Shown: positions 6,063-19,106 of the stretch, one piece after another | Position numbering within the stretch: the first letter of the stretch is position 1 | How the letters are laid out: every line of letters starts with the position of its first letter | Assembly: GCA_964519895.1 (NCBI GenBank) | Contig: CAZFLE010000009.1 | Coordinates: forward strand, 31,610-95,609 | Reading direction: 5' to 3' | Length of the DNA stretch: 64,000 nt | Origin: an uncultured Enterobacterales bacterium | Lineage (GTDB): Bacteria; Myxococcota_A; UBA796; CAJQPC01 | Notes under the pieces: model-generated | Databases searched by the model: none | The model's input: the letters and a program-made list of their open reading frames with translations, nothing else | Told to the model about the DNA's origin: nothing | Program-made: the position numbers and the translations under genes

Positions 6063-6079
6063 GCTGAACACCCGTACAG
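6063..6079 (-). promoter_or_regulatory. Myxococcus-type LexA (SOS) box
   Basis: Minus strand CTGTACGGGTGTTCAGC matches the M. xanthus LexA consensus as I recall it (CTRHAMRYBYGTTCAGS) at 16/17 positions. It lies 34 bp upstream of the cinA start and overlaps the predicted -10. Confidence 0.8.
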
Positions 6080-6104
6080 TAACGGCGGGCGATTGACCTG
6101 ACAA
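6076..6104 (-). promoter_or_regulatory. Sigma70-type promoter of cinA-recA-pilT
   Basis: Minus strand TTGTCA (6104-6099), 17-bp spacer, TACTGT (6081-6076). Confidence 0.65.
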
Positions 6105-6299
6105 GACCCGAGTGGACAGGAACTGTCCGATCGGTCCCGACACGGTCGCCAAGGCGGGGTGTGGTCCAGCACCCGGTCCCCCGTGACCCCGCCGCGCGGT
6201 GTCATAGTCTCTCGGCCCCGAGGCGGGGTCAGGCAAGCTCTGGCCCCGGACTCGTGCTCTCCTGCTCGCACACACCAGGAGCCCCAGATCTTCTCGCCC

Positions 6300-7001
6300 T
6301 TGCTGCTGCTGGCCGCCACGACGGGCTGCATCCATGTGTACCAGCCCATGGCGGGCTTCCACGGCCCCGTGGTCGTGGATCCCCAGGCCCGGAACTTCGG
6401 AGATCTGTCCCTGACCGTGGTCTGCGAGCGCGGAGACCTGCTCACCGCCGCCGAGGCCCGCACCCTGTGCCAGCACGTGGGCACGCTCTTCGAGCAACAG
6501 GGCGCCGTGGTGACCACCACCACTTCGGAGTCCGGTGCCGGAGAGTTCGAGTTCGAGGAGCCCGCTGTCCCCGGCGAAGAAGAAGCGCCACCGCCCGCCA
6601 CCGACCTGACCCTGGAGCTCACCTCCCGGGAGCTGCACAAGGCCAACGACCCGGTCTCCTGGGTGCTCTTCTTCATCAGCGCCACCGTGGTGCCCGCGGT
6701 GACGGAGACCTCGTTCGCCGTCGACGTCACCATCAAGGACGAGAGCGGCTTCGTGCTGGTGGCGGACTCGCTGCAGGGGCGCCTGGTGCGCCGCATGGGC
6801 GTCGGTGCCTGGGGCACGAATTTCCTGCTGGACAGCTTCCTGCGGGAAGACGCGGACCGCATCACCGGAGACGCGGCGCACCAGGATCTGTCCGACGACC
6901 TGTACGGTCAGCTCGGACAGCTGCTGTTCAACGCCAAGATGCAGTGGCAGGTCCTGTCCCAGGCTGCTGCCGCCCCGTCGCTGCCGGGGGCCCCGCCATG
7001 A
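6300..7001 (+). CDS. Lipoprotein of unknown function, gene 1 of the putative motor operon (start uncertain; open frame from 6159)
   Basis: TTG at 6300 gives MLLLAATTGC (lipobox-like), followed by an alpha/beta-looking domain. The stop overlaps the next ATG (ATGA 6998-7001). Confidence 0.7.
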   Translation: MLLLAATTGCIHVYQPMAGFHGPVVVDPQARNFGDLSLTVVCERGDLLTAAEARTLCQHVGTLFEQQGAVVTTTTSESGAGEFEFEEPAVPGEEEAPPPATDLTLELTSRELHKANDPVSWVLFFISATVVPAVTETSFAVDVTIKDESGFVLVADSLQGRLVRRMGVGAWGTNFLLDSFLREDADRITGDAAHQDLSDDLYGQLGQLLFNAKMQWQVLSQAAAAPSLPGAPP

Positions 7002-7639
7002 TCGAGGCGATCATCTTGTGGCTGGGCTTGTTGGTCTTCGTGTCCCCCAAGGACCCGGCGCCGGGGCTGCTCCACTCCAAGAATGAAGCGCGCAACCTGG
7101 AGTGCGAGCGGCTGAGCGTCGAAGAAGCGAGCCGAGCCCACCCCGGCGACGTCGCGCCCCCTGGTCCTCGGGGCGACTACTACGCCCGCAGCGCCCTCGT
7201 CTGCACGGAGCGCCTGGTTCGGCCCGGTCTACGGGACGCCCGGGACGAGGCCATCCTGTCGACCCTGGACGCTCGCTCCAGCGAGCTCGCGGCCGCCGCC
7301 GACGCCCTTCGCCCCGAGCTCCAGGGCGCCACGTGGCTGGTCGAGACCTACTACCCAGACCCCCAGGTCGCCGCGAAGATCGGCTTCGCCACCAAGAACG
7401 CCCTGGTGTTCCAGGGGCTGCGGGTGTCGGACCGGACCCCCCTGCTGGGGGCGGGCGACGTCCAGGTCATCACCCGCATGACACCAAGCGACGCCTATGC
7501 CGCGGCGTGCCGGCGCTATGCGGACAACGGCAGCTTGGGCCCGGACGATGTCTTGCTGGGCGTCGTGAGCCTGGACCCTCGCGAGACGGCCCTGCACGCC
7601 GGACTGTGCCAGCAGGGCACGTGGACGTGGCTCCGATGA
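6998..7639 (+). CDS. Exported or membrane-anchored hypothetical protein, operon gene 2
   Basis: MIEAIILWLGLLVFVSP hydrophobic N-terminus; ATGA overlaps at both ends; 213 aa. Confidence 0.75.
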   Translation: MIEAIILWLGLLVFVSPKDPAPGLLHSKNEARNLECERLSVEEASRAHPGDVAPPGPRGDYYARSALVCTERLVRPGLRDARDEAILSTLDARSSELAAAADALRPELQGATWLVETYYPDPQVAAKIGFATKNALVFQGLRVSDRTPLLGAGDVQVITRMTPSDAYAAACRRYADNGSLGPDDVLLGVVSLDPRETALHAGLCQQGTWTWLR

Positions 7640-8913
7640 ACGCCCTACGCCGCGTGTTCGCGATGGCCCTGGCGGTGGCGTTCGCGTCAGGCCCGGCCTT
7701 GGCGGCCGATCCCCTCGAGGCCGCCCAGCTCGCCGAGCTCGATCGGGTCCGGACCCAGGTCGCTGGTCAGGTCCAGCTGACCGCCTACGACCTGCTCGAC
7801 GAGCTGGTGCTCGGGTGGATCCAGGAGCCGGTCTTCACGACCCCGACCCCGGTGGTGCTGGCCGGCCTGACGGTCCCGGTCGGGCTGGGCACCGGGCTCC
7901 AGGCCTTGCTCGAGAACCACCTGGGCGGCCTGCTGACCCAGAACCCTGGCTGCAATGTGCAGCTCTCCCACTGCCCGAGCTGCACCGCCGTGGTCGTGCA
8001 CTCCGGCCCGGAAGGCACCGTGGTGTCCCGGGGCATCGACAGCCCCGCCCTGCTCCAGGAGCTCGGCAGCGGCGGTCGCAAGTACGCGCTCTTCGTGGAC
8101 GTCGAGGCCGAGGGCACGTGGTTGGTCCTGCGTGCCCGCATGACCGAGCTGAACCCGGACCTGCCCATCGTCTGGAGTCGGACCCTGTCCCACGCGTCCA
8201 GCGTGCCGGCGATGCTGCGCCAGCCCGACGACCTGAAGACCGTCGCCGAAGCCCGCCAGGACTACCTGGCCGCGCTGGAGTCTCGGGGTCCCCTCGCGGT
8301 GCCCGTGAGGATCGGGGTGCGGGCCTTTGCGGCACCGGACGGCAACACCCTCTTCGAGACCGACACCTTCGACACCTACGACACCACCGACACCGACACC
8401 GACACCGGCTTGGACACCGGCGGCATCGGCATCGCGCCGCCGCCCTTCTACTGGGTCCAGAGCGGCATCGAGCTGGGCATGAGCGACGCCCGGGCCTGGA
8501 TCTCCAGCTTCGTGCTCGGCTACAGCGTCATCCCCCAGGCCTACCAGGGGCTCATGGGCGAGGTCCGGTTCGCCCGGCTGCTGACGGGCAACTACCGCTC
8601 CCTCACCCGGCCGGACCTGTACGCCTTCGGGGGCGCCGCGGTCATGACGGTCTGGGGCCCGGCCACCGGCAGCTTCACCAACAACGCCCTGAACACCGAC
8701 GACATCCTGAATCAGCTCGAGGGCGACGACCCCCGGGCCGTCTTCGGTACCTTCCAAGCGGGTCTGGACCTGCGGGTCGGCAATCGGATGGGCATGTCGG
8801 CCTTCTTCGAGTTCCTGCCGTCGTTCCGAGACTCCGACAACTTCGGCGCCTACCTGAGCGTCTTCGGCCTGGGCATCCAGAGCTTCGGCACCGAGGTGAC
8901 GTTCTGGCTCTGA
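7636..8913 (+). CDS. Secreted protein with CxxC-containing alpha/beta domain and C-terminal beta-barrel-like region, operon gene 3
   Basis: Signal peptide MNALRRVFAMALAVAFASGPALA, HCPSC, a D/T-rich linker (FETDTFDTYDTTDTDTDTG) and amphipathic strands ending GTEVTFWL. Confidence 0.75.
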   Translation: MNALRRVFAMALAVAFASGPALAADPLEAAQLAELDRVRTQVAGQVQLTAYDLLDELVLGWIQEPVFTTPTPVVLAGLTVPVGLGTGLQALLENHLGGLLTQNPGCNVQLSHCPSCTAVVVHSGPEGTVVSRGIDSPALLQELGSGGRKYALFVDVEAEGTWLVLRARMTELNPDLPIVWSRTLSHASSVPAMLRQPDDLKTVAEARQDYLAALESRGPLAVPVRIGVRAFAAPDGNTLFETDTFDTYDTTDTDTDTGLDTGGIGIAPPPFYWVQSGIELGMSDARAWISSFVLGYSVIPQAYQGLMGEVRFARLLTGNYRSLTRPDLYAFGGAAVMTVWGPATGSFTNNALNTDDILNQLEGDDPRAVFGTFQAGLDLRVGNRMGMSAFFEFLPSFRDSDNFGAYLSVFGLGIQSFGTEVTFWL

Positions 8914-9869
8914 GGCTGTTCCTGGCGTGGCTCGGGGCCCTGGTCCTGGCGTCGGGGTCCGCGTGGGCCGGCACGGCCGAGAGTCGGGAGTCCCTGGATC
9001 GCCTCGAGGAGCTGCTGCAGCTCCGGATCGAGGACGGTCGCCTGGATCTGGACGACGTGACCCCAGCCGTCCTGGTCAGCGCCACGCCGCGCTACGTCAC
9101 GTCTCAGGACTGGTTCGGGGTGCAGGCCATCGATGTGCTGCAGTCCGTTTTGGGCCAGGGCCTGCGCCTGTGCGAGGCCTGCATGGTGCCCCGGGCCTTC
9201 GTCCAGCAGGGCCTGCTGACCTACCAGACGGGCGCGGTGTCGCTGGCCGACGTGGTGCGGCTGGACGAGGCCAGCCGTGGCGGCGCCACGCCAGCCCGCT
9301 CGGCCATCTGGATCGAGGAGACGTCGGTCGGTGTGGCCGTGCGCATCTTGGCGCTGGGCACCGGGCGCGTCTTGTTCGCCCAGAACATCGACCCCATGCT
9401 GGTCGAGGACGAGCAGACCCAGCGCAATTTCACCCTGAGCGAGGAGCTCGAGCGGCGGTCTCGCGGGCGGAGCATCACCCAGTCCTTCCTGGACGTCGCC
9501 GTCTACCCGGGCCAGCACATCTCGGTGGACATGACCGAGCAGTGGGGGGCGACCAACAAGAACCTGACCGGGGTGACCCTGTCCCTGGTCGACCCGGTCT
9601 TCGGCCTGGGCGCCGCGCACTATCGGGTCGTAGACCTGGTGAACGTCATCGTCGGGGCCAAGCTGGTGCTCAGCGTGCCCACGGCGCTGGTGCGGGCCTT
9701 CGACGACGACGCGGGCGACGTGCTCGATCCGATGGTCACAGCGGTGGGGGTGGTGCGCGTACCCTTTGGTCGCAGCAACTACGGCGTGGTCGCCACGGTC
9801 TCGACCAACGGCACGATCGGACTCGGACTCTCGCTGATGAACATCCGCTTCCTTCCGGTGATCCCATGA
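8910..9869 (+). CDS. Secreted protein resembling gene 3 (CxxC + CsgG/FlgO-like strand motif + beta-strand-rich C-terminus), operon gene 4; probable CTG start
   Basis: (M)RLFLAWLGALVLASGSAWA signal peptide, LCEAC, VAVRILALGTGRVLFAQ. The frame has no ATG/GTG/TTG between the end of gene 3 and the signal peptide. Confidence 0.7.
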   Translation: MRLFLAWLGALVLASGSAWAGTAESRESLDRLEELLQLRIEDGRLDLDDVTPAVLVSATPRYVTSQDWFGVQAIDVLQSVLGQGLRLCEACMVPRAFVQQGLLTYQTGAVSLADVVRLDEASRGGATPARSAIWIEETSVGVAVRILALGTGRVLFAQNIDPMLVEDEQTQRNFTLSEELERRSRGRSITQSFLDVAVYPGQHISVDMTEQWGATNKNLTGVTLSLVDPVFGLGAAHYRVVDLVNVIVGAKLVLSVPTALVRAFDDDAGDVLDPMVTAVGVVRVPFGRSNYGVVATVSTNGTIGLGLSLMNIRFLPVIP

Positions 9870-10513
9870 CCCTGCTTGCGGGTGCCGTGCTGCTGGGGCT
9901 CGCCCCGGGTTGCGCCATGCACAACTACACCCACTACCTGATCGAGCCGGCCCCGGCGACGAGCCCGGTGCTCGAAGAAGAGGAGGGCACCCAGCTGCGG
10001 CCCATGGGCTTCGGCTCGACCACGGCGATGCACGTGCGCTGGAACGATGGCGACGTCATCACCGAGGTCCAGATCCCGCTCTTGGCGAGTGGGCAGCGCA
10101 TCGTGATCGAGCATACAGCCGCGGCCACCGACGTGGAGACCATCCCGGCGACCCGACTGGTGCCGCCGCCGCCGAGCCTGGCCGACGACACCTTGGACGA
10201 GGCCTACCGACAGCGGGGCCTGCGGGTGAACCAGGGGGCGCCAGAAGTCAGCCTGTCCGCGGCCCGCACGCGCATGAACCAGGCCCTGGCCGACGGCAAC
10301 TACCAGCTGGCCCTGGAGTGGTGTGAGCTGGTGTTGGCCCGCTACCCCGCCCACCCCGAGACGCTCCGTGCCAAGGGCTCGGTGCTCTTGCTGCTGGGGG
10401 AACGGGAAAAGGCCATCGAGGTCTACGAGGCGGTCGAGGAGATCGAGTCTGATCCCGCAGTGCGCAAGAAGCTCGAGGAGCTCCAGGCGCAGCAGCCCGA
10501 GGTGACGGAGTGA
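9866..10513 (+). CDS. TPR-containing lipoprotein, operon gene 5
   Basis: MTLLAGAVLLGLAPGC lipobox; C-terminal TPR-like pair GNYQLALEWCELVLARYPAHPETLRAKGSVLLLLGEREKAIEVYE. Confidence 0.8.
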   Translation: MTLLAGAVLLGLAPGCAMHNYTHYLIEPAPATSPVLEEEEGTQLRPMGFGSTTAMHVRWNDGDVITEVQIPLLASGQRIVIEHTAAATDVETIPATRLVPPPPSLADDTLDEAYRQRGLRVNQGAPEVSLSAARTRMNQALADGNYQLALEWCELVLARYPAHPETLRAKGSVLLLLGEREKAIEVYEAVEEIESDPAVRKKLEELQAQQPEVTE

Positions 10514-10517
10514 ACCT

Positions 10518-11246
10518 GTGCAGCTAGTCGGTCTCACCCTGTTGGGCTACGTGATCTGGTTTGGCTTCTTCGGCGAACGCGAAGCCGGTGCCATCACGGC
10601 CTTCGACCTCCACGCCCTGGTGATGGTGCTGGGGGGCTCCGCGTCGGCCGTCCTGGTGATGTCCAAGACCCGGGACAGCCTGCGCACCCTGACCTGTCTG
10701 CGCGAGATCCTGCCCGGTCTGGGCACGCTGGACCGCGCGAATCAAGCCCTGGAGGCCGAGCGCGACGAGCTGGTCACCCTGTGGCTCGACGGCCGGCGAG
10801 CCCAGGCGGTCGAGCTCGCCGAGCGCAGCGCGTTCCCCGCTACCCGGGCAATGCTCGGGCTGGTCCTCCGCCGGGCGTCCCCCCAGGCCATCCAGGCCGC
10901 CTTCACCAAGCTGCGCCACGACGAGCTGAGCCGGTGGCAGCCAGCGGTCGGGAACTGGGAGCTGCTGGCCAAGCTCGCGCCGTCCTTTGGCATGGTCGGG
11001 ACCATCACCGGCATGATCCAGCTCTTCCGCAACATGGGCGAGGACACCGCGGCGTTGGGTCCTGCGCTGTCCCTGGCGCTCCTGGCCACCCTCTACGGGG
11101 TCGCCTTCGGCGCGGGCGTCGCCGGTCCGATCGGTCACTACCTCCGAGGCCTGCTCGACGAACGCCTGGGCGCCCTGGAGCGCTGCGAACAGAGCGTCTC
11201 CGAGCTGATCGCAGCCTCCGGCGACGCGCTGGCGGGCGGGATCTAG
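10518..11246 (+). CDS. motA: Flagellar-type stator A subunit (MotA/PomA-like)
   Basis: Four-TM layout with a cytoplasmic domain; LAPSFGMVGTITGMIQLF, LGPALSLALLATLYG and GVAGPIG; R94/E102 have the same 8-residue spacing as E. coli MotA R90/E98. Confidence 0.88.
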   Translation: MQLVGLTLLGYVIWFGFFGEREAGAITAFDLHALVMVLGGSASAVLVMSKTRDSLRTLTCLREILPGLGTLDRANQALEAERDELVTLWLDGRRAQAVELAERSAFPATRAMLGLVLRRASPQAIQAAFTKLRHDELSRWQPAVGNWELLAKLAPSFGMVGTITGMIQLFRNMGEDTAALGPALSLALLATLYGVAFGAGVAGPIGHYLRGLLDERLGALERCEQSVSELIAASGDALAGGI

Positions 11247-11249
11247 CCC

Positions 11250-11879
11250 ATGCAGAGACGCGTCTACACCAACGACGAGGGCTGGCTGCTCAGCTACGCA
11301 GACCTGATCACCAACCTGTTGGTCTTCTTCGCCATCATCGTCTCGGTGTCCGACGTCAGTCGCTCCCAGATGCAGAAGGTGGCGGAGCGGCTGTCTGGGG
11401 TCGAGCAGCCCCAGAGCCTGCGTTCGATCCAGAAGGAGATCGACGCCCGGATCGAGGCCGAGGGCCTCCAGGAACTCATCCGCACGGACCTGACCGACGA
11501 CGGACTCGAGGTCGCCCTGAATTCCGGGGTGGTGTTCGACTCCGGCAGCGCGGTGATCCGGGCCGAGCACAGCCCGCTGCTCACCAGCATGCTCGAGACC
11601 ATGGCGCCGTATAGCGGCCGGTACGACTTCGCCGTCGAGGGCCACACCGACAGCACGCCCATTGTGAACGGCAACGGCCACTACCCCACGAATTGGGAGC
11701 TCTCCACCGGGCGGGCCAACGCGGTGCGCGCCCGCCTGGAGGACGTCGGCGTGGAACAGGAAGGCATCCGGGTCGAGGGCTATGCCGACACGGTCGTGCT
11801 GCCCGAGGACGACCTGGAGGGTCTGACCGAGGAAGAGCGCCTGGCCCGCCACCGGCGTGTCGTCGTGAGGATCTACTGA
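11250..11879 (+). CDS. motB: Stator B subunit MotB with OmpA-like peptidoglycan-binding domain
   Basis: WLLSYADLITNLLVFF with the ion-binding Asp18, then a plug-like helix, VEGHTDSTPI, NWELSTGRANAV, GYADT and RRVVVRIY. Confidence 0.93.
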   Translation: MQRRVYTNDEGWLLSYADLITNLLVFFAIIVSVSDVSRSQMQKVAERLSGVEQPQSLRSIQKEIDARIEAEGLQELIRTDLTDDGLEVALNSGVVFDSGSAVIRAEHSPLLTSMLETMAPYSGRYDFAVEGHTDSTPIVNGNGHYPTNWELSTGRANAVRARLEDVGVEQEGIRVEGYADTVVLPEDDLEGLTEEERLARHRRVVVRIY

Positions 11880-13681
11880 TGTCCGGTCTGTGTCTCCTCG
11901 CGGCCCTGGTGCCCGGCGTCTTTGCCCAGTCGCCCACGGTGCCCACCCGGCAGATCCCGCCGTCGGTGCTGGTCGAGGTCCAGCTGCTCGAGAACCGCTT
12001 CGACCTGGCCCTGGCCCAGGACTGCGACGCGTCGCGCTGCTTCTCCAAGGGCTGCAGCTACCTGGACCACGCCGTCGCCGACCGGCCTCGGCAGACCTCG
12101 TTGCCGGGTCTCGCGCCGGAGTCCGGACCCAGCGCCGAAGGGGCCCAGGAGTACCTGACAAGCGCCCGGTGTGCCTTTGCCCACGAGCAGAGCCTGGCGA
12201 GCCGGGACGTGCAGAACCTGGTGCGCCGGCTCCAGGCCAAGCTGTCGTCGGGCTGGACCGTGGTCACCGTGACCAACGACGTCCTGCAGCCTCTGCCCCA
12301 GTACCTGAGCGAGCCGGCGGTGCCGGAGCCCCAGGAGCCCGAGGAGCAAGAAGAGGAGGTCGCCGCGCCCGAGCCCGAGCCCGAGGAACCGGCGGCCTGG
12401 TCCTGGGCCCAGGCAGGCCAGGAGCTGTGGGCCACGCTCTTGCCCCACTTCTTCTGGATGATCGGCCTGGGGCTCGTGACCCTGGCCTCTGCGATGTTGA
12501 TCTGGTCCTGGCGTCGGGTCGGCCGGGCGTCTCTCGAGGAACAGGCGCTGCTGGCCCAGATCACGGCTGGGCCTGGGGGCGGCGGGCCCGCAGCCACCCC
12601 CACGTCCGTCGAGCCCGACGAGGACGCCGCCTGGGTCGACGCCCAGCACGCCGCCTGGTCGGAGCGCCTGGCCGGCCTCGATCCGGAGCAACCAGACCCC
12701 CAGCTCCAGGCCCTGCTGCGGGAGCTCCTGAGAGCCGGCAGCCTGCCGCTGCTTGCCAAGGCCGTGCTGACCTACCCCGCCTTGCCGGATGCGTTCCCCA
12801 GCGGGGGCGACGTGGCCGGCCAGAAGCTGGCACTGGCGGACTTCCTGACCGGCGTCGACGACGGGGCCCTGCCCTCTGACGCCGCATTCTTCGAAGCCCT
12901 CAACCGGCACGCGCTCTCCGCGACACTGGCCAGCCAGAGCGACACCGGAGTCCTGCGCAGCCTGCGGGAAGACTTCGGCACCGCAGGCCTGGCGACCCTC
13001 ATCAGCGCCCTGCCGCCCCGGGACGGCGCCGTGCTCTTCGCCCTGGCGCCGGGGGCCAGCCAGCGGGAGCTGGTGGGCCTCTTGTCACCGGTCCAGGCCG
13101 CGGAGCGTGCCGGTCAGCTCTTGCTGTCGGAGCGCATGGACCGGCGCCAGACCGCGGCGCTCTTTGGCGTGCTCGAGGCCGCCCGCACCGGCGGCAAGCT
13201 GACCATGCCCCAGGGCGGCGCCCGCATCACGGACCGGGGCACGCCCTTCGACGCAGCGGGTGCGCTCTCCGTGCTCCTGGGCGCCGTCGAGCCCCACCAG
13301 CGGGCCGCCCTCTTCGAGGGGGTCCTGCAGCGCTTCCACGGCACCCTGCCGGCGTGGCACAGGGGCATTCTGGTGCCTGACATGTTGCTGGAGCTCCCGC
13401 AGGAGGCCCGCACGGACCTGTTCCTGGAGGTCGAAGCCGAAGAACTCGCGGCGTGGCTGGCCCTGGTGCCCAGTGAGTCTCGGGCACAGCTGGTGACCGG
13501 CCTGCCGGATGCCCTGCGGGCGACGCTGCAGGCCCTGTCCTCGTGGCCGTCGGCCGCTCGTAGGGACGCCCTGGCAGACCAGGGGCGACGCGCCCTGGCG
13601 CGCGGCTTTCAGCGCCAGCTGGCCCGGGCCAGTCTGCCGTTCGAGCGGGTGGTCACGGCCGGAAGCGGGACAGCGACGTGA
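11879..13681 (+). CDS. Putative single-chain rotor protein: signal peptide, FliF-RBM3-like periplasmic domain, Pro/Glu linker, one TM helix, FliG middle and C-terminal-like domains (600 aa)
   Basis: TGATG coupling to motB. TM LLPHFFWMIGLGLVTLASAMLIWSWRR. The C-terminal segment from DAAGALSVLLG through LFLEVEAEELAAWLALVPSESRAQLVTGLP to QGRRALARGF follows the FliG helix pattern by eye. Confidence 0.7.
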   Translation: MSGLCLLAALVPGVFAQSPTVPTRQIPPSVLVEVQLLENRFDLALAQDCDASRCFSKGCSYLDHAVADRPRQTSLPGLAPESGPSAEGAQEYLTSARCAFAHEQSLASRDVQNLVRRLQAKLSSGWTVVTVTNDVLQPLPQYLSEPAVPEPQEPEEQEEEVAAPEPEPEEPAAWSWAQAGQELWATLLPHFFWMIGLGLVTLASAMLIWSWRRVGRASLEEQALLAQITAGPGGGGPAATPTSVEPDEDAAWVDAQHAAWSERLAGLDPEQPDPQLQALLRELLRAGSLPLLAKAVLTYPALPDAFPSGGDVAGQKLALADFLTGVDDGALPSDAAFFEALNRHALSATLASQSDTGVLRSLREDFGTAGLATLISALPPRDGAVLFALAPGASQRELVGLLSPVQAAERAGQLLLSERMDRRQTAALFGVLEAARTGGKLTMPQGGARITDRGTPFDAAGALSVLLGAVEPHQRAALFEGVLQRFHGTLPAWHRGILVPDMLLELPQEARTDLFLEVEAEELAAWLALVPSESRAQLVTGLPDALRATLQALSSWPSAARRDALADQGRRALARGFQRQLARASLPFERVVTAGSGTAT

Positions 13682-15729
13682 TGCGGGCCGTCGCCGTCGC
13701 CGTCACCCTTCTGGGCGCTGGCCTGGCCGGGTGCTCCAAGGTCCCACTCTCCGACGTCGAAGCGGACTTCACGCTGGCCGACACGGCTTGGTTCCAGGCC
13801 GAGGAGACCCTGTTCGTGTTCTACCGGATCACGGCCGAGCAGGGCCTGGGCGACCCCAGCGTGGTCGAGATCACCTACACCACCGACGACGGGCGGGTCG
13901 ACTGGACGCCGCTGAGCGAGCTCACGCCGGTGCACACCCACGTCGACGTGGACTGCGGCACCCAGGGACTCTGCGGCAGCCACAGCGTGCACGTGCCCCT
14001 GGAGCCCAGGGACGTGGATCTGCGGCTGCGCTACCACCACGATGGTGAGCTCTCCCTGCGGGCTGACACCGTGCTCAACGTCATCTACCCGGGCCCGGCC
14101 CACCTCCAGCGCAGCTTGCTGGTCTACGGGGTCTTCGATGAGACCAACCGACGGGTCCAGTGGCGGGCGCGGCACCTGTTCCCCACGCTGCGGAACCAGG
14201 ACGCCGAAGACCTGGGCCTGCGGCGAGAGTTCTCGGTGGCCGACCAGCGCTACGGCGACCTGGACGAGCCTGTGGATCTGAACAACCCCTATGCCTACGG
14301 GGTGACCTGTCCCGGGGACTTCGTCGACGCGGGGGTGGACCCGGTCCTGACCCTCGATCGGGCGGTCTTCAACGCCCAGGAGCTCCCGACGGACGCGGCC
14401 GATGCCGCCGTGGTGTGTGGCCCCAGCACCGTCACCGATGCCCTCGGCAACTTCACCGCGGATGCCGTGGCCCGCAAGAATCCCGAGGTGCGCCCGGCGT
14501 TTCCCCTGCTCCGGACGCCGGTGCGGGACGCGACGCCCCTGCGATTCTTCCTGGCCCCTTGCGACCGCACCATCGACGACGACCACGAGGAACTCCAGCG
14601 CCAGCGCTTGCTGGTCGGCGACCTGGCTCCGATCTGCACCGACGACTGGGAGACCGCGGGATTTGTCGAGGCACTGGTGACGACCTTCTCCGACGCGGTC
14701 GAGGCCGAGCGGGTGCGGGGCCAGGACATGGTGTTGGTCATCGGGCTGCACCGAGACGACGACGGTCTGGCCGACGCGGTCCAAGAGGCCCTGGCCCTGG
14801 TCGTTCCCGAGGAGCGGCACCAGAGCTCACCGCGGCTCGCAGGAGCGTTCGTGTTCGACAGCGACATCCAGGGCCTGACCTTGCCCGAGCTCGAGCCGGT
14901 GACGCTGTGGTGCCCGGCGACCCAGGGGTCCGGTGCGTCGGCGCGGACCTGTGCCATCCAGCCCGACAACCCCGAGATCGAGCTGGGTCCGCTGACCTTC
15001 AGCACCCTGCCGGTCTTTCCCTCCCGGGCCGTGTACCTGGACTTCATCGACACCTACTCCAAGCGCCAGGCCGGCGACGTGCTGGCCCTGGACTTCCTGA
15101 CGCCGGAATTCGCGACCACAAGCGACCACATCGACCTGGGCGAGTTCGGCACCATCACCTTCCTCGACGACGAGTTCATCACCGCCACCGCCGACGAAGC
15201 GTTCTCCCACTGCGTCCAGGAGGAACCCCCGCCGGTGGTCTTCCGCTCCGAGATCCTGACCAGCGAGCAGTTCGCCAACATCCTGGAGGTCTGGTGCGCC
15301 AACGGGGTGGTGAGCGAAGACTTCTGCTCGCTGGCGACCCTGGGGGTGCTGACCCTGGACCAGCTGCCCGAGTGGCACGAGCTGGTGGGCGAGCCCCTCT
15401 ACGAGCTGGGGCTCTTCTGGGACTTCCCCTTCCTGCTGCGGGTGGAGTACGAGGCCTACACCGCAGGCGCGGTGAGCGCCTTCGAGCTCAGCGTGCCCTT
15501 TGGCGTCGCCGGCGACGGCGAGGCCTACTACGGCACCGCTGCCTGGCTCGCCGACGCGTTCTCTCTGGAGGACGAGCTGCTGCAGTGCACCCGCTTCTGC
15601 GACCACCCGACCTTTGGCTCGGCCAGCGTCTACAACGTCACCGACCCCTTCCGGCTGACGTACCTGAACACCTGCTATGCGCCGGTCTACCCCAGGGTTG
15701 GGGACTCGGGCTTCCCCCTTGATCCCTAG
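13678..15729 (+). CDS. Large acidic, Cys-rich lipoprotein of unknown function, operon gene 9
   Basis: Lipobox LAGC, 14 further Cys, beta-rich; GTGA overlap with the upstream stop. Confidence 0.8.
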   Translation: MMRAVAVAVTLLGAGLAGCSKVPLSDVEADFTLADTAWFQAEETLFVFYRITAEQGLGDPSVVEITYTTDDGRVDWTPLSELTPVHTHVDVDCGTQGLCGSHSVHVPLEPRDVDLRLRYHHDGELSLRADTVLNVIYPGPAHLQRSLLVYGVFDETNRRVQWRARHLFPTLRNQDAEDLGLRREFSVADQRYGDLDEPVDLNNPYAYGVTCPGDFVDAGVDPVLTLDRAVFNAQELPTDAADAAVVCGPSTVTDALGNFTADAVARKNPEVRPAFPLLRTPVRDATPLRFFLAPCDRTIDDDHEELQRQRLLVGDLAPICTDDWETAGFVEALVTTFSDAVEAERVRGQDMVLVIGLHRDDDGLADAVQEALALVVPEERHQSSPRLAGAFVFDSDIQGLTLPELEPVTLWCPATQGSGASARTCAIQPDNPEIELGPLTFSTLPVFPSRAVYLDFIDTYSKRQAGDVLALDFLTPEFATTSDHIDLGEFGTITFLDDEFITATADEAFSHCVQEEPPPVVFRSEILTSEQFANILEVWCANGVVSEDFCSLATLGVLTLDQLPEWHELVGEPLYELGLFWDFPFLLRVEYEAYTAGAVSAFELSVPFGVAGDGEAYYGTAAWLADAFSLEDELLQCTRFCDHPTFGSASVYNVTDPFRLTYLNTCYAPVYPRVGDSGFPLDP

Positions 15730-16552
15730 CCTGCTCCTGGGTCTCTGGGGTGGTCCTGTGCTCGCCGCAGAGGACCCGGATGCGTCCGACGACGGGTCTG
15801 AGTCGTCGTCCGAAGACGACGAGGCCCCCGCCGAGCCTGAGCTCGACGACGAGCTCTCCAGACACCGGGTGGCCTTTCCCGTGCTCGCCGAGCAGGCCAT
15901 CGGGGCAGCGTCGAAGTCGGTGGAGTTCAACTGGCGGCACGCGACGGCGATGGTGGCCGCGACGGGCAGCCACTACTTCGAGCTGAACAACTTCGACAGC
16001 CTGCGGGCTGGCGGCGTGGCCAGGGTGCCCTACGACAAGTTCATCCTGGAGCTCGGCGGAGCCTGGGTCTGGGTCTGGGACACGCCCAGCAGTCGCCAGC
16101 TGGCGCTGACCCCCTACCGCCAGCCTGGCCGCCCGGCGCGGATCGAGCTGGACCTGACGGTGGGCTTCCCCGTCGCCGAAGGCGTGGTGACGACCTTTCC
16201 GCGACTGTTCCCGGCGGTCGAGCTGGTCTTCAGCCCCTACGCCGGGCTGCGCTACGTGCTCTACCCGACGGCCTTCCAGGGCATGAAGGCCCGGGAGATC
16301 GCCGGCGCTGTGGTCAGCCCGACCCTGACCGACGACGAGCTGGAGAACCTGGAGGAGGTCCGGCTGGACGCCATGGAGGTCGATCCCGCGCGGTACGGCA
16401 TCCTGGTCGGCTTCGGCAACGAGATCTACTTCAAGCAGGGGGTGTTCGTGATGCCGCGGGTGATGTTCGCCGTGCCGGTCTTCGCACCGGTCACCGAGAG
16501 CGATCTGCGGTTCTGGGCGGACCTGTCCCTGACGATCGGGGTGGCGTTCTGA
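15719..16552 (+). CDS. Predicted outer-membrane beta-barrel protein, operon gene 10
   Basis: TTG start gives the signal peptide MIPSLLLGLWGGPVLA, then an acidic N-terminal segment, alternating amphipathic strands and C-terminal DLSLTIGVAF (terminal Phe OMP signature). Confidence 0.75.
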   Translation: MIPSLLLGLWGGPVLAAEDPDASDDGSESSSEDDEAPAEPELDDELSRHRVAFPVLAEQAIGAASKSVEFNWRHATAMVAATGSHYFELNNFDSLRAGGVARVPYDKFILELGGAWVWVWDTPSSRQLALTPYRQPGRPARIELDLTVGFPVAEGVVTTFPRLFPAVELVFSPYAGLRYVLYPTAFQGMKAREIAGAVVSPTLTDDELENLEEVRLDAMEVDPARYGILVGFGNEIYFKQGVFVMPRVMFAVPVFAPVTESDLRFWADLSLTIGVAF

Positions 16553-18459
16553 TGCTCTGGGTGGTCCTGCTCGCGCTCGCAGCCGGGGAGCCAGCGCCGG
16601 GGCCGAGCACCCACACGCTGCTGTACTACAACGCCCGCATGGCCCTGCGGGAGGGCAACCCCAGCGAGGCGGTCCGGCTGTGGTTCACGCGCAACACGCT
16701 GCGGGACCGCACCGGGCGCGTCTCGGCCCATGACGCCGACTTTCACTCCGTGACCTGGACAGCCCTTGGAGACCTGGGCGTGTGCCAGGACGGCCACCCC
16801 CGGGACAAGGACGGTGCCGGCCTGTGGCCCCTCGCGCTCCACAACCAGATCGTCCGCAACATGGGGCGGCGCCGACGGGCTCCAGCGGCACAACCCTTCT
16901 CGGCCTTCGAGGTGGACCGCCAGCACCGCCTGGTCTCGATCAACGAGGTGCTCAGCTACGACGAGCTGCGCACGGTGCGGCTGTTCCGCGGCCCCTGTCT
17001 GGAGCCGCGCTTCGCGCTGGCCCGCGCCGGAGAGCTGCCGACGGCGGACCTGTCAGACCGCCAGGTCGTCGCTCGCTTGTTGCGGCACCTGCTCGACGAG
17101 GCCCGAGGCAGCCTGGCCCAGCCGCGGGTGCGAGGACGGGCCGCCATCGACGCGCGGCTCTTCGACCTGGACTTGCAGCTCACCGCTCTGGCCGCACGGG
17201 AGGCCCGCAAGCAGGCTCTGGACCAGGCGGGGCAGGGCCGGCAGCTCGGGCTGTCCCGCGCGTCGGTGACCGTCATGCGTGAAGAGGCGCCGGGCACCAC
17301 GCTGGACCCCGACTCAGAAGCGGCCCGCATCCTGCGGGAGGCGGTGGCCTGGCCGGTCTGGGAGTGGATGGCCCTGTCGTCGGAGCGTCGTCTCTTCCTG
17401 TTCGACCACGTGCGGGCCAACGGCGCCGACCCGGCTGCGCTCGATGCGCTGGCCCTGGGCATCCTGGACCGACTGATCCATCAGGGCCTGGGAACGGAGG
17501 TGGGCCCATGGATCGCTCGGGTGGGGAACCCGGACGACCCGGGGGCGCGGGCCCAGGTCTGGCGCGGCCCGCGGGGCCAGGCGCTGATGGCCTTGGGGGC
17601 CGAGAGCGGCTTCGAGGAAGGCGCGGTCATCGCCCTGGCCAGAGGCGTGCATCACCTGGAGCGGGGGGAGCTGCCCGAAGCCCTCCGGTCGTTGGCGTTC
17701 GCGGTCCAGGGTGCCGGCACATCCCAGGTGGCCAACACCGTCGAGGGCCTGAGCCTGCGTTGGCTGTCCTTTGTCGCAGGTCGATTCGAGATCACCGACG
17801 ATCTGCTGTTGACCCTGCAGCAGCTCGTGCCGGTGAGGGACTACGCCGTCATCCTGGAAGACCTGATGTGGCGGGCGGCGCTGCGGGCCGACCAGGCATC
17901 CTTCGAGCGCGGCCTGGCCAACCAGCGTGGCCGCGGCGCCCTGGCCCGGCGCCTGGCGTGGCTACGGCCCCTGGCCGCGGGCGATCTTGGGCGGTTCTCC
18001 CAGGACATCGCCGACGGGCTCGACGAAGCCCCCAGCGAGACCCTGCGCTTCCTCGATCAGCTCGTCCAACGGCTGGAGCTGGAGCCGGGCGCTGTGCGAG
18101 CGGCCCATGCTGGGACCCTGGATCGGCTGGACACGTTGCTGCTGCCCCTGGCGGTGGCCCTGGAGGGTGGGCGCTTGGCCCGCGCCGCCACCGCCCTGCT
18201 GGAGCGTTCTCAGGCTCTGAGAGAAGGCCTGGGCGGTCTGACAGACGACGCGACAGCCCGAGAGCGGGCCCGGGCGCTGGACCCTTCCCGCGAGGTCTTC
18301 GTGGGCAGCGTGCGGCTGGCCCCGGCCGACCCTCTGCCATGGCCCTTCCGCCGGCTCGACGTGCCGGCGCCCTCGGTGTTCACGCCGCTCCAGCTGACAC
18401 CGGTGGAGTGGCGGGACGACGGCGGTGAGCTGGTCTTCGGGTGGAGCATCGGCGGGTGA
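16552..18459 (+). CDS. Secreted all-alpha (TPR-like) protein, operon gene 11
   Basis: Signal-like MLWVVLLALAAG, helical repeats such as YNARMALREGNPSEAVRLW and LARGVHHLERGELPEALRSL; TGATG coupling. Confidence 0.75.
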   Translation: MLWVVLLALAAGEPAPGPSTHTLLYYNARMALREGNPSEAVRLWFTRNTLRDRTGRVSAHDADFHSVTWTALGDLGVCQDGHPRDKDGAGLWPLALHNQIVRNMGRRRRAPAAQPFSAFEVDRQHRLVSINEVLSYDELRTVRLFRGPCLEPRFALARAGELPTADLSDRQVVARLLRHLLDEARGSLAQPRVRGRAAIDARLFDLDLQLTALAAREARKQALDQAGQGRQLGLSRASVTVMREEAPGTTLDPDSEAARILREAVAWPVWEWMALSSERRLFLFDHVRANGADPAALDALALGILDRLIHQGLGTEVGPWIARVGNPDDPGARAQVWRGPRGQALMALGAESGFEEGAVIALARGVHHLERGELPEALRSLAFAVQGAGTSQVANTVEGLSLRWLSFVAGRFEITDDLLLTLQQLVPVRDYAVILEDLMWRAALRADQASFERGLANQRGRGALARRLAWLRPLAAGDLGRFSQDIADGLDEAPSETLRFLDQLVQRLELEPGAVRAAHAGTLDRLDTLLLPLAVALEGGRLARAATALLERSQALREGLGGLTDDATARERARALDPSREVFVGSVRLAPADPLPWPFRRLDVPAPSVFTPLQLTPVEWRDDGGELVFGWSIGG

Positions 18460-19106
18460 GTCCAGATGAGGGCCAGGCGCTCCGTGCGCGCAAGCGAGCG
18501 CTCCGGGCTGAACTCGCGCGTCGCAAGGCCGAGGCCCGGGCGGAGCTCGAGCGCCAGCGGCAGGCCCTCGGGCTGGCCCCGGCCCGTCGGGATCGGCGCC
18601 TCGCTTGGGTCCTGCTGGCGCTGCTGGCGGTGCTCCTGCTGCTGCTCAGCGACTGTTCCTGTCAGCCGGAGCCGCCCCAGCAAGCGGCACCCGGTCCGGC
18701 CGCCGAAGAGCCGGAGCCCGAGCTCACGCCCCCTGTCGAGGCCCCCAAGCGGCCCCAAGCACCGGGCCGAATCGCCAGGTTGGATCGGCCGGAGTACCGC
18801 AGCGAGGTGCCCGAGGTGCTGCCGTGGGTCGCCGCCTTCCAGCGCCAGGTCGAGGCCCGCAGTCCCCGGCTGGCGGCGTGCTTCGTAGGCGCGGAGCGGC
18901 CCGGGCGCATGAAGTGGACGGCGGCGGTGGCGCCGGAGACCGGGCGCGTCTCCGAGCACTCCCTGGAGCCCACCGTGGCCGACGAGGTGTTGTCCCGCGT
19001 CCAGCGGCAGTGCCTGATCGGCGTCCTGTCCGACCCGCCCTACCGGTTCCAGGTCGTCGAGGGTCGCGCGACACCGTCCCGGGTGAGCCTGGTGATCGAG
19101 TTCTGA
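18456..19106 (+). CDS. Bitopic membrane protein with Pro-rich linker and TonB-C/AgmX-GltJ-like C-terminal domain, operon gene 12
   Basis: Basic coiled N-terminus, TM LAWVLLALLAVLLLLL, PEPPQQAAPGPAAEEPEPELTPP linker, then RLAACF, GRMKWTAAVAPETGRV, QCLIGVL and PYRF. GTGA overlap at 18456. Confidence 0.65.
   Translation: MSPDEGQALRARKRALRAELARRKAEARAELERQRQALGLAPARRDRRLAWVLLALLAVLLLLLSDCSCQPEPPQQAAPGPAAEEPEPELTPPVEAPKRPQAPGRIARLDRPEYRSEVPEVLPWVAAFQRQVEARSPRLAACFVGAERPGRMKWTAAVAPETGRVSEHSLEPTVADEVLSRVQRQCLIGVLSDPPYRFQVVEGRATPSRVSLVIEF

What the first reader, a model, noticed from the sequence alone, without database searches (positions are those of the whole stretch)
6300..19106. Candidate new system: 12-gene operon for a non-flagellar, envelope-spanning ion-driven rotary motor
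Seen: twelve co-oriented genes joined by ATGA, TGATG, GTGA or CTGA overlaps, one 11-bp overlap, or 3-4-bp gaps. They encode MotA, MotB, a FliF/FliG-like fusion, three beta-barrel-like secreted proteins, three lipoproteins (one with TPRs), an exported hypothetical protein, a large TPR-like protein and a TonB-C-like bitopic protein. The window has no flagellin, hook, rod, FliM/N or type III export gene. Known: MotA/B turn FliG in flagella, whereas the myxobacterial Agl-Glt gliding machine uses TolQ/R-type subunits, TonB-C-like Glt proteins and OM barrels but no FliG. Inference: a hybrid machine in which a flagellar-type stator drives a minimal membrane rotor ring coupled to outer-membrane components, possibly for surface motility, secretion, prey contact or envelope remodelling. 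I know of no description of this gene set, but could not search.
Basis: partly seen in the sequence, partly recalled or inferred. Interest (0 to 1): 0.93.

Follow-up and report, generated by a model that had tools for sequence, protein, structure and literature searches.

The report
Flagellar-type motor genes without a flagellum
A tightly conserved 12-gene operon of gliding, non-flagellated myxobacteria combines a flagellar-type MotA/MotB ion motor and a membrane-anchored homologue of the flagellar rotor protein FliG with nine unknown periplasmic and outer-membrane proteins. It appears to be an undescribed envelope-spanning machine.

Summary
Window 6300-19106 (+) carries twelve translationally coupled genes. 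All twelve recur in the same order in each of the 73 related loci, as far as each contig reaches, including cultured Archangium species. Flanking genes are not conserved. Relatives with 48% GC keep the gene set even where motAB has moved to a divergent position.

- **Stator:** g6/g7 are a flagellar-type stator. MotA has four transmembrane helices and both key prolines. MotB has the plug, the channel Asp and an OmpA-like domain.
- **Rotor candidate:** g8 (600 aa) reads signal peptide, an alpha-beta-beta-alpha-beta ring-building-motif fold, one transmembrane helix, then a full-length FliG homologue. hhalign against 11 true FliG proteins gives 97.7-98.6% probability (E 1e-12 to 1e-14). FliG also tops the Foldseek hits.
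- **Other parts:** None of the other nine proteins matches any Pfam or NCBIfam family (apart from TPR repeats in g5) or any flagellar protein. The window contains no other flagellar gene.

Caveats:
- g8 lacks FliG's torque-helix charges and its FliM-binding motif.
- The beta-barrel, TPR-like (g11) and TonB-C-like labels are unverified.
- Rotation and physiological role are inferred.

Nine full-text literature searches found no prior description. I judge it a new kind of machine, with a rotary mechanism at about 0.55 confidence.

The parts
6102..6299 (.). Divergent intergenic region between cinA (minus strand) and g1. This is the presumed promoter region of the operon.
   Evidence: cinA was identified at 4761-6101(-). 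The frame plot shows minus-strand coding up to about 6100. The sequence is shown. Promoter function was not tested.
6300..7001 (+). g1: lipoprotein of about 233 aa (lipobox LAATTGC) belonging to an unknown family. The start codon is uncertain (TTG 6300).
   Evidence: No Pfam or NCBIfam hit. Conserved at this position in every related locus that extends this far.
6998..7639 (+). g2: exported or anchored protein of 213 aa with four conserved Cys, belonging to an unknown family.
   Evidence: No family hit. Conserved.
7636..8913 (+). g3: secreted protein of 425 aa (signal peptide ...PALA/AD) with an HCPxCT motif and a C-terminus ...EVTFWL. It is a possible outer-membrane protein.
   Evidence: No family hit. 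Not similar to g4 or g10. HMM E 1e-73 to 1e-99 in the 48% GC relatives.
8904..9869 (+). g4: secreted protein of about 320 aa belonging to an unknown family. Translation must start at CTG 8904 or 8910.
   Evidence: no ATG/GTG/TTG start before 9057; GAGGTG lies upstream.. No family hit. Conserved.
9866..10513 (+). g5: lipoprotein of 215 aa with C-terminal TPR repeats. It is the best-conserved accessory protein, at 64-87% identity.
   Evidence: Pfam TPR_2, TPR_19 and TPR_14..
10518..11246 (+). g6: MotA/PomA-type stator A subunit, 242 aa, with four transmembrane helices and a roughly 100-aa cytoplasmic loop.
   Evidence: PF01618 at E 1.6e-17. The nearest NCBIfam models are flagellar motor protein and PomA; TolQ scores only 2e-3. 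PDB hits below E 0.1 are all flagellar MotA or PomA, nearly full length, with no ExbB or TolQ. Equivalents of E. coli P173 and P222 are conserved (P154, P203), and R94 lies in the RR..LE motif.
11250..11879 (+). g7: MotB-type stator B subunit, 209 aa, with the transmembrane Asp18 (equivalent to E. coli D32), a plug and an OmpA-like peptidoglycan-binding domain.
   Evidence: MotB_plug at 2.8e-11 and OmpA at 3.4e-11. MotD, MotB and MotS are the nearest models. PDB MotB and PomB hits. hhalign against MotB gives 99.1%, with WLLSYADLIT aligned to WKIAYADFMT.
11879..13681 (+). g8: 600 aa. The order is signal peptide, a periplasmic alpha-beta-beta-alpha-beta (RBM-like) domain with four invariant Cys (residues 28-135), a transmembrane helix (about 185-210), and a full-length FliG homologue (about 261-596).
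   Evidence: AF2 model with pLDDT 82. Foldseek gives FliG for 10 of the top 11 hits and weak PrgK, EscJ and FliF-RBM3 hits. MgtE_N (FliG clan) hits 37 of 42 members. hhalign against 11 FliG proteins gives 97.7-98.6%. Pfam FliG_C hits a distant member. Conservation is mapped.
13678..15729 (+). g9: Cys-rich lipoprotein of 682 aa with tandem Ig/FN3-like beta-sandwiches followed by alpha/beta and beta-rich domains. It is a candidate periplasmic or surface module.
   Evidence: AF2 model with pLDDT 83.5. Foldseek gives only generic Ig-like matches. No Pfam hit in 47 homologues.
15677..16552 (+). g10: secreted protein of about 277-291 aa with an acidic N-terminal region and a C-terminus ...LTIGVAF. 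It is a candidate outer-membrane beta-barrel.
   Evidence: Among the pooled homologues of g1-g4 and g10-g12, six gave a weak 'TDE1717 OM beta-barrel' NCBIfam hit; which genes they belong to was not determined. Conserved.
16552..18459 (+). g11: 635 aa with a short N-terminal hydrophobic segment and conserved Cys. It belongs to an unknown family and is a presumed periplasmic scaffold.
   Evidence: No Pfam or NCBIfam hit, TPR included. Conserved.
18441..19106 (+). g12: bitopic inner-membrane protein of 216-221 aa. It has a basic cytoplasmic N-terminus, a transmembrane helix (51-76), a Pro-rich linker and a conserved 100-aa C-terminal domain with two invariant Cys, ending ...VIEF.
   Evidence: No TonB_C, Pfam, NCBIfam or PDB sequence match.

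Best explanation
The operon encodes one self-contained, envelope-spanning machine that is not a flagellum.

**Shown**
- The 12 genes form a conserved unit.
- g6/g7 are a flagellar-type MotA/MotB ion channel and stator. The channel Asp, the two key prolines, the plug and the peptidoglycan anchor are all intact.
- g8 is a single-pass membrane protein. Its cytoplasmic part is a full-length FliG homologue and its periplasmic part has a ring-building-motif fold.
- The other nine proteins carry signal peptides, lipoboxes or a membrane anchor, so they act outside the cytoplasm.

**Inferred**
- g8 oligomerises through its RBM and transmembrane parts into an inner-membrane ring.
- MotA5B2 units, anchored to peptidoglycan, use the proton or sodium gradient to push on the FliG-like ring.
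- The movement passes through the periplasmic face of g8 to g12, g11 and g2.
- From there it reaches an outer-membrane module made of g3, g4 and g10 with lipoproteins g1, g5 and g9.
- No export apparatus, rod or filament is involved. All periplasmic parts are Sec-exported.

**Output.** The physiological output is unknown. The most likely options are movement of surface or outer-membrane components (a further kind of gliding or surface translocation) or an energised outer-membrane process.
For: - **Unit.** The same 12 genes occur in the same order in each of the 73 related loci, as far as each contig reaches. Flanking genes are not conserved. Junctions are translationally coupled.
- **Linkage survives rearrangement.** 48% GC relatives keep the set even with motAB moved to a divergent position, and orthologous MotAB is still matched at E 1e-61 to 1e-78.
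- **Flagellar-type stator.** The plug plus OmpA-like domain is a published hallmark of flagellar stators as opposed to Exb/Tol/Agl types (PMC12505986).
- **g8 is RBM + TM + FliG.** AF2 model, Foldseek, Pfam MgtE_N in 37 of 42 members, hhalign 97.7-98.6% with clean negative controls, and FliG_C in a distant member.
- **Adjacency.** g8 immediately follows motB with a TGATG overlap.
- **No other flagellar part.** Nothing is detectable in the operon or the window.
- **Non-flagellated carriers.** Cultured Archangium species carry it; their lack of flagella is established knowledge.
Against: - The FliG residues that contact MotA in flagella (E. coli K264, R281, D288, D289, R297) are not conserved in g8 or anywhere in its family. 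The FliM-binding EHPQR motif is also absent.
- Across the whole g8 family, the strongest conservation is in the periplasmic domain and the transmembrane segment, not in the FliG-like part. That would also fit a non-rotary role.
- Similarity of the periplasmic domain to FliF is at fold level only. hhalign gives P 0.009-0.05 and Foldseek E 0.3-0.6.
- Ring formation, the MotA-g8 contact and rotation were not tested, because no multimer modelling was available.
- Absence of flagellar genes from whole carrier genomes could not be checked.
- The function of nine of the twelve proteins is unknown.
Confidence: 0.55

Rival explanations
1. Ton/Tol/Glt-like force transducer rather than a rotor. The MotAB unit energises a bitopic partner docked on the MotA pentamer through its transmembrane helix (g12, or g8 itself). 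That partner pulls on outer-membrane proteins. The FliG-like domain of g8 serves only as a cytoplasmic scaffold or regulator.
For: - g12 has the TonB/TolA/GltG layout: a cytoplasmic N-terminus, a transmembrane helix, a Pro-rich linker and a small C-terminal domain.
- The g8 family is best conserved in its transmembrane and juxtamembrane segment and its periplasmic domain.
- The torque-helix charges are missing.
- The overall inventory (secreted proteins, lipoproteins, a TPR lipoprotein) resembles the Glt outer-membrane and periplasmic modules described in PMC11761067.
Against: - The stator is not the TolQR/ExbBD/AglRQS type. It has four transmembrane helices, a plug and an OmpA-like anchor, as flagellar stators do.
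- g12 gives no TonB_C, Pfam, NCBIfam or PDB hit even across 38 homologues.
- A complete three-domain FliG fused to an RBM fold is hard to explain as a mere scaffold.
Confidence: 0.25
2. PMF-dependent structural or sensory envelope complex. MotAB acts as a peptidoglycan-anchored, gated ion channel that reports or regulates assembly of a periplasmic and outer-membrane scaffold, for example during development, sporulation or envelope stress. No sustained movement is involved.
For: - Nine of the twelve proteins are extracytoplasmic scaffold-like proteins with no enzymatic domain.
- The operon contains no cytoplasmic switch or regulator.
- Conservation in the FliG-like part is weak.
Against: - All catalytic hallmarks of a working stator are kept under strong conservation: the Asp, both prolines and the plug.
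- No precedent is known to me for MotAB acting as a pure sensor.
- The tight MotAB-FliG linkage mirrors the torque-generating pair.
Confidence: 0.1
3. Accessory or displaced genes of a genuine flagellum encoded elsewhere in the genome, or a decaying remnant of one.
For: MotA, MotB and FliG are flagellar families. Whole genomes of the uncultured carriers could not be inspected.
Against: - The cluster is present in cultured Archangium, which is non-flagellated by established knowledge.
- g8 is membrane-anchored and lacks the FliM-binding motif, so it cannot be a C-ring FliG.
- Reading frames are intact and proteins are 41-87% identical across 73 loci and a wide GC range. That indicates purifying selection, not decay.
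- The partner genes are not flagellar.
Confidence: 0.05

Closest known systems
Bacterial flagellar motor (MotA5B2 stator, FliG/FliF rotor)
   Same: - The MotA is PomA-like, with four transmembrane helices and both conserved prolines.
- The MotB has a plug, the channel Asp and an OmpA-like peptidoglycan-binding domain.
- The FliG homologue covers the N, M and C domains.
- An RBM-type periplasmic fold is attached to the membrane, as in FliF and SctJ.
- motB and the FliG-like gene are adjacent.
   Different: - The operon has no FliM/FliN, export apparatus, ATPase, rod, hook, filament or L/P rings, and the window has none either.
- The FliG part is covalently fused to one transmembrane helix and a single RBM-like domain, rather than binding a two-helix, three-RBM FliF.
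- The torque-helix charges and the EHPQR motif are absent.
- Nine partner proteins belong to unknown families.
Myxococcus Agl-Glt gliding machinery and its Nfs sporulation paralogue
   Same: - It occurs in the same phylum.
- It is an envelope-spanning set powered by a MotA/TolQ-superfamily motor.
- It includes secreted putative outer-membrane proteins, outer-membrane lipoproteins, a TPR lipoprotein and a bitopic protein with a Pro-rich periplasmic linker.
- The run g1-g5 (lipoprotein, exported protein, two secreted proteins, TPR lipoprotein) recalls gltK-gltB-gltA-gltC. The gene order is from my own recollection; the composition is from PMC11761067.
   Different: - Glt uses TolQ/R-like AglRQS, which has no plug or OmpA-like domain and no FliG.
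- Glt has cytoplasmic GltI, AglZ, MglA and MreB links, and FHA, ZnR and GYF domains on GltG/J. None of these is present here.
- No sequence-level link was found between any accessory protein and any known family.
- Direct comparison with Glt sequences was not possible with these tools.
Bacteroidota GldLM/PorLM-driven type IX secretion and gliding apparatus
   Same: An inner-membrane 5:2-type ion motor is thought to drive a periplasmic and outer-membrane ring of lipoproteins. It has no filament and no ATPase, and it moves surface proteins.
   Different: GldL/GldM are unrelated in sequence to MotAB. That system has no FliG-like rotor, and its components (GldK/N, SprA) have no counterpart detected here.
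Ton (ExbBD-TonB) and Tol-Pal (TolQRA) systems
   Same: They belong to the MotA/ExbB/TolQ channel superfamily. They include a bitopic protein with a Pro-rich linker reaching towards the outer membrane, and a TPR lipoprotein or periplasmic protein (compare CpoB).
   Different: The stator here is clearly of the MotAB type. TolQ scores only E 2e-3 and ExbB E 0.05 against NCBIfam, and neither gives a PDB hit. No TonB_C, TolB or Pal-type partners were detected.
MgtE magnesium channel N-domain (Pfam MgtE_N, FliG clan)
   Same: This is the only Pfam family that g8 matches above threshold (26.6 against 25.9 bits; 37 of 42 family members).
   Different: g8 has no CBS pair and no MgtE membrane domain. 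It aligns with FliG over 315 columns covering N+M+C, so FliG is the proper relative, not MgtE.

Membership tests
Bacterial flagellar motor | A MotA/PomA-type A subunit with four transmembrane helices, a large cytoplasmic loop and the two conserved prolines (E. coli P173, P222) | tested here: met
   PDB hits below E 0.1 are flagellar MotA or PomA only. P154 and P203 are conserved, and R94 lies in the RR..LE motif.
Bacterial flagellar motor | A MotB-type B subunit with the channel Asp, a plug helix and an OmpA-like peptidoglycan-binding domain | tested here: met
   hhalign 99.1%; D18 aligned with E. coli D32.
Bacterial flagellar motor | A FliG rotor protein with N, M and C domains | tested here: met
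   hhalign gives 97.7% in local mode and 98.6% in global mode, with 315 columns aligned to FliG 1-331. Foldseek gives FliG for 10 of the top 11 hits. Unlike FliG, however, the protein is membrane-anchored.
Bacterial flagellar motor | FliG torque-helix charged residues (K264, R281, D288, D289, R297) and the EHPQR FliM-binding motif | tested here: not met
   The aligned positions in g8 are A, A, A, L and R, and LPPR..Q. None of them is conserved across the 81-member family.
Bacterial flagellar motor | A FliF MS-ring protein with two transmembrane helices and RBM1-3 | tested here: inconclusive
   g8 has one alpha-beta-beta-alpha-beta domain and one transmembrane helix. Foldseek hits to PrgK, EscJ and FliF RBM3 have E 0.3-0.6. 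hhalign against FliF gives P 0.009-0.05.
Bacterial flagellar motor | C-ring FliM/FliN, type III export apparatus, rod, hook, filament and L/P rings | tested here: not met
   None of the 12 proteins matches 23 further flagellar protein profiles by hhalign or by Pfam or NCBIfam. None was found among the rest of the window ORFs scanned. The FlgA, FlgH and FlgI profiles were thin (2-3 sequences). Whole genomes were not testable.
Agl-Glt / Nfs machinery of Myxococcus | A TolQ/TolR-like motor (AglR with AglQ/AglS) | tested here: not met
   The stator is MotAB-type with a plug and an OmpA-like domain. TolQ scores only E 2e-3.
Agl-Glt / Nfs machinery of Myxococcus | Bitopic GltG/GltJ with a TonB-C-like periplasmic domain and cytoplasmic FHA or ZnR/GYF domains | tested here: inconclusive
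   g12 shares the topology and the Pro-rich linker. It has no TonB_C, FHA or other hit. Its cytoplasmic part is only about 50 aa. No structure model was available for it.
Agl-Glt / Nfs machinery of Myxococcus | An outer-membrane module of GltA/B/H beta-barrels with GltK and GltC, plus periplasmic TPR proteins GltD/E | not testable with these tools
   No Glt sequences were at hand. g3, g4 and g10 have signal peptides only, with no OMP family hit and no mutual similarity. g5 has TPR repeats.
Agl-Glt / Nfs machinery of Myxococcus | Cytoplasmic platform (GltI, AglZ, MglA, MreB coupling) | tested here: not met
   No cytoplasmic protein is encoded in the operon apart from the FliG-like domain of g8. 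No conserved neighbouring genes exist.
MgtE Mg2+ channel | MgtE_N followed by a CBS pair and the MgtE membrane domain | tested here: not met
   Only MgtE_N is matched. There are no CBS or MgtE domains, and the protein has a single transmembrane helix.

The most novel reading that the evidence does not exclude
A FliG-MotAB rotor-stator pair works here as a free-standing rotary engine, with no type III export apparatus, rod or filament. It turns a Sec-assembled periplasmic and outer-membrane structure. This would be one of two things. It could be the first known co-option of the flagellar torque generator for another machine, such as a new mode of gliding or an energised outer-membrane process in Myxococcota. 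Or it could be a surviving sister lineage of the pre-flagellar motor module.
Probability: 0.45. Interest if true: 0.95.

Novelty: categorically new. Interest (0 to 1): 0.88.

Why it matters
FliG and plug/OmpA-type MotAB stators are regarded as exclusive to flagella. A recent survey treats flagellar stators as a single flagellum-associated clade (PMC12505986).

A conserved non-flagellar machine built on this pair would have three consequences:
- It would show that the torque-generating module can function and evolve independently of the type III export core. That bears directly on how the flagellum arose.
- It would add a new class to the family of ion-driven envelope machines (flagellum, Ton, Tol, Glt, T9SS, Zorya).
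- It would define nine new protein families of the myxobacterial envelope.

The system is testable. Cultured Archangium gephyra, A. violaceum, A. minus and A. lansingense carry it.

Tried and rejected
- **Internal paralogy.** hhalign of all 66 pairs of the 12 protein families found nothing above 20% probability. g3, g4 and g10 are not detectably related to each other.
- **Amphipathic-periodicity predictor.** A home-made test for beta-barrels and helical proteins failed on the two proteins whose models I had, so I discarded it.
- **AF2 with locus-derived homologues.** Only g8 and g9 could be modelled, so g3, g4 and g10-g12 remain without structures.
- **Pooled family scan.** Scanning 127 homologues of g1-g4 and g10-g12 against Pfam and NCBIfam gave only noise. 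There was no TonB_C, no OMP family and no Glt-related model.
- **g12 against PDB.** A profile of g12 against PDB sequences gave zero hits. A profile of g8 against PDB sequences gave only noise.
- **g9 fold search.** It returned only generic Ig/FN3 matches. There was no vWA or adhesin-specific fold, so the idea that g9 is a CglB-like adhesin is unsupported.
- **First hhalign of g8 against FliG.** With the shallow 42-sequence alignment it was weak (Prob 6.9%, P 0.005). Adding the distant family representatives raised it to 97.7-98.6%.
- **Conserved neighbours.** A search for genes that might hint at function found none.
- **Exhaustive HMM search with the g8 profile.** It found only 170 clusters at 50% identity. 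None was a true FliG or MgtE, so the family is small and sequence-remote.
- **Taxonomy of the low-GC carriers.** It could not be established.
- **Relic or displaced-stator readings.** I rejected these on grounds of conservation and architecture.

Full report
**1. The observation**

The window has about 70% GC, so raw ORF lists are crowded with spurious frames. I used third-position GC to assign frames and then placed start codons.

Twelve + strand genes fill 6300-19106:

| Gene | Coordinates | Description |
|---|---|---|
| g1 | 6300-7001 | lipoprotein |
| g2 | 6998-7639 | exported |
| g3 | 7636-8913 | secreted |
| g4 | 8904/8910-9869 | secreted |
| g5 | 9866-10513 | TPR lipoprotein |
| g6 | 10518-11246 | MotA |
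| g7 | 11250-11879 | MotB |
| g8 | 11879-13681 | 600 aa, FliG-like |
| g9 | 13678-15729 | lipoprotein |
| g10 | 15677/15719-16552 | secreted |
| g11 | 16552-18459 | 635 aa |
| g12 | 18441/18456-19106 | bitopic |

Two corrections are needed. motA and motB are genes 6 and 7, not the first two. g4 has no ATG, GTG or TTG ahead of its signal peptide, so it must start at a CTG preceded by GAGGTG.

The operon is bounded upstream by a divergent cinA-recA-pilT-like-alaS block on the minus strand. Downstream lies ruvX, 39 nt after g12.

**2. It is a conserved unit**

The g8 family has about 300 members, all labelled 'hypothetical'. They come from uncultured Myxococcota and from cultured Archangium. A genome scan returned 73 loci, including A. 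gephyra, A. violaceum, A. minus and A. lansingense.

tblastn of all twelve proteins shows the same genes in the same order in every locus, as far as each contig reaches. Identity is 36-87%. ruvX is never linked to the cluster elsewhere. No flanking gene is conserved, so the twelve genes form an autonomous module.

An exhaustive profile search found only 170 clusters (50% identity) among 1.84 billion representatives. The most distant of these sit in DNA of 48-49% GC. They still carry the whole set, in one of two layouts:
- the window's order (L074);
- motAB divergently transcribed upstream, with one extra unknown gene after the g8 homologue (L075 and others).

The link between MotAB and the rest survives this rearrangement. 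That is strong evidence for one functional system.

**3. The stator**

- g6 matches PF01618. Its nearest curated models are flagellar motor protein and PomA, not TolQ or ExbB.
- Against all PDB sequences, its hits below E 0.1 are flagellar MotA or PomA over nearly the full length. No ExbB, TolQ, GldL or ZorA appears.
- It has four hydrophobic segments and a roughly 100-aa loop between the second and third.
- The equivalents of E. coli P173 and P222 are conserved. R94 falls in the flagellar 'RR..G.L.LE' motif, and E102 is moderately conserved.
- g7 has MotB_plug and OmpA domains. It aligns with E. coli MotB at 99.1% hhalign probability, and Asp18 lies on D32.
- A 2025 survey names the plug-linker and the OmpA-homologous anchor as the features that separate flagellar stators from Exb/Tol/Agl-type relatives (PMC12505986).

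By these criteria this is a flagellar-type stator.

**4. The 600-aa protein**

AlphaFold2 with 42 homologues gave a confident model (pLDDT 82). It contains, in order:
- a cleavable signal peptide;
- a periplasmic alpha-beta-beta-alpha-beta domain (residues 28-135), which is the ring-building-motif topology of FliF, SctJ and SctD;
- one transmembrane helix;
- a 350-residue all-helical cytoplasmic domain.

Foldseek against the PDB put FliG from four species in 10 of the top 11 places (best E 4.9e-4, probability 1.0). The periplasmic part weakly matched PrgK, EscJ and FliF RBM3. Pfam finds MgtE_N (FliG clan) in 37 of 42 members, and FliG_C or FliG_M in a few.

To test homology properly I collected 11 genuine FliG sequences from E. 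coli and from plasmid-borne flagellar clusters of six bacterial classes. I compared profiles as follows:
- With the shallow family alignment the signal was weak.
- With 81 sequences that include the distant representatives, the cytoplasmic part aligns to FliG at 97.7% probability (E 2e-12, FliG 102-325).
- In global mode the figure is 98.6% (E 1e-14, 315 columns, FliG 1-331).
- Three control families score P 0.1-0.4.
- A distant member matches the whole Pfam FliG_C model.

So g8 is a full-length FliG homologue, tethered to the membrane and fused to an RBM-like periplasmic domain. The 'FliF-like' half is supported only at fold level. hhalign against FliF gives P 0.009-0.05.

**5. What argues for caution**

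In the FliG alignment, the residues that meet MotA in flagella (K264, R281, D288, D289, R297) correspond to A, A, A, L and R in g8. The EHPQR motif corresponds to LPPR..Q. None of these positions is conserved across the family.

Family-wide, the invariant residues cluster in two places: the periplasmic domain (four Cys, P76-G77, E103, R117) and the transmembrane and juxtamembrane segment (W193, W209, R212, R213, G215). They do not cluster in the FliG-like part.

If MotA pushes on g8, it therefore uses a non-canonical interface. A Ton-like docking through the transmembrane helix cannot be excluded.

**6. The other nine proteins**

- Apart from TPR repeats in g5, none matches Pfam or NCBIfam. 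This holds even when 127 homologues are scanned individually.
- None resembles another member of the operon.
- None matches profiles of the 23 further flagellar proteins tested, including FlgA/H/I, the rod and hook proteins, FliL/M/N and the export proteins. The FlgA, FlgH and FlgI profiles were thin.
- g9 was modelled (pLDDT 83.5). It is a Cys-rich lipoprotein with two Ig/FN3-like sandwiches followed by alpha/beta and beta-rich domains. It has only generic fold matches.
- g12 has a basic cytoplasmic N-terminus, a transmembrane helix, a Pro-rich linker and a conserved 100-residue C-terminal domain with two invariant Cys. It gives no TonB_C or PDB sequence match.
- All nine have a signal peptide, a lipobox or an N-terminal anchor, and most carry conserved Cys. 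They therefore act in the periplasm or outer membrane.

**7. Mechanism**

The best reading (confidence about 0.55) is a non-flagellar, ion-driven rotary machine:
- Peptidoglycan-anchored MotA5B2 units act on an inner-membrane ring of g8.
- The periplasmic face of that ring couples to g12, g11 and g2.
- Those in turn couple to an outer-membrane module of g3, g4 and g10 with lipoproteins g1, g5 and g9.

Shown: the gene linkage, the identities of MotA, MotB and FliG, the intact channel residues, and the extracytoplasmic location of the partners. Inferred: ring formation, the stator-rotor contact, rotation and the output.

Rivals:
- a Ton/Glt-like linear transducer (0.25);
- a PMF-gated structural or sensory complex (0.10);
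- an accessory or relic of a true flagellum (0.05). This last is disfavoured by Archangium being non-flagellated, by the membrane anchoring of g8, and by purifying selection across 73 loci.

**8. Comparison with known systems**

- **Flagellum:** it shares only MotA, MotB, FliG and an RBM fold.
- **Agl-Glt/Nfs:** the overall inventory is similar, as described in PMC11761067 and the 2026 gliding review PMC13104615. The motor type differs, however. There is no cytoplasmic platform and no detectable sequence relationship.
- **MgtE:** it is not an MgtE.

**9. Novelty**

Nine full-text searches found no description of a FliG-containing non-flagellar system or of this gene set. These covered recent reviews of 5:2 motors, of stator evolution, of periplasmic force transducers and of gliding. 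The library lacks most subscription journals, so this is not proof of absence.

I rate the system categorically new as a machine type, built partly from known parts.

Noticed in passing
window 8904-9057: g4 has no ATG, GTG or TTG start upstream of its signal peptide. Translation apparently begins at CTG 8904 or 8910, with a GAGGTG Shine-Dalgarno-like motif just upstream. This is a rare non-canonical start.
   Followed up: partly
window 5-6101 (minus strand): The block alaS, a PilT-like ATPase (T2SSE), recA and cinA is transcribed divergently from the operon. recA's annotated ORF overlaps the end of cinA by about 100 nt, so recA probably starts further downstream than the longest ORF suggests.
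   Followed up: partly
window 44986-55278 (minus strand): A cellulose-synthase-type operon is present: a BcsA-like glycosyltransferase with a PilZ domain, BcsB, and a 1815-aa TPR/BcsC-like protein.
   Followed up: no
window 36490-43006: A polysaccharide export set is present: a Wza-like Poly_export/SLBB protein, an initiating sugar transferase, a Wzc-like chain-length/tyrosine-kinase protein, a HEAT-repeat protein and a Wzi-like protein. Sulfatases lie nearby at 25914-27821 and 42985-44970.
   Followed up: no
window 21765-25984 (minus strand): Two ORFs of about 700 aa each have good coding statistics but no Pfam match at E <= 1e-5. They lie next to a CarboxypepD_reg-domain protein (19623-21569).
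   Followed up: no
L001-L005, L008, L020, L034, L041 (genome contigs records): MAG records that carry the cluster are titled Enterobacterales, Klebsiella pneumoniae, Bifidobacterium breve or Alphaproteobacteria. Their cluster proteins are close (49-87% identical) to those of the window and of the Myxococcota-labelled MAGs, so the taxonomy labels are probably wrong or placeholders.
   Followed up: no
L067:2621-3847 and 6589-8033; L057; L062: One MAG has about 1.2-1.4 kb of extra DNA inside the cluster, between g1/g2 and between g4/g5. Two other loci show truncated matches for g3, g8 and g11. These could be insertions, masked N runs or disrupted copies.
   Followed up: no
L075:4219-17697; loci of P0254 and P0227: Low-GC (48%) relatives have a variant layout. 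motA-motB is divergent upstream of g1, and an extra unknown gene of 260-287 aa sits directly after the FliG-like gene, with no Pfam match.
   Followed up: partly
window 11879-13681 (g8), residues 27-117 and 189-215: Across 81 family members, the invariant residues are four periplasmic Cys, P76-G77, E103 and R117, plus the transmembrane and juxtamembrane W193, W209, R212, R213 and G215. The FliG-like part is much less conserved. This suggests that the key contacts are periplasmic or intramembrane.
   Followed up: partly
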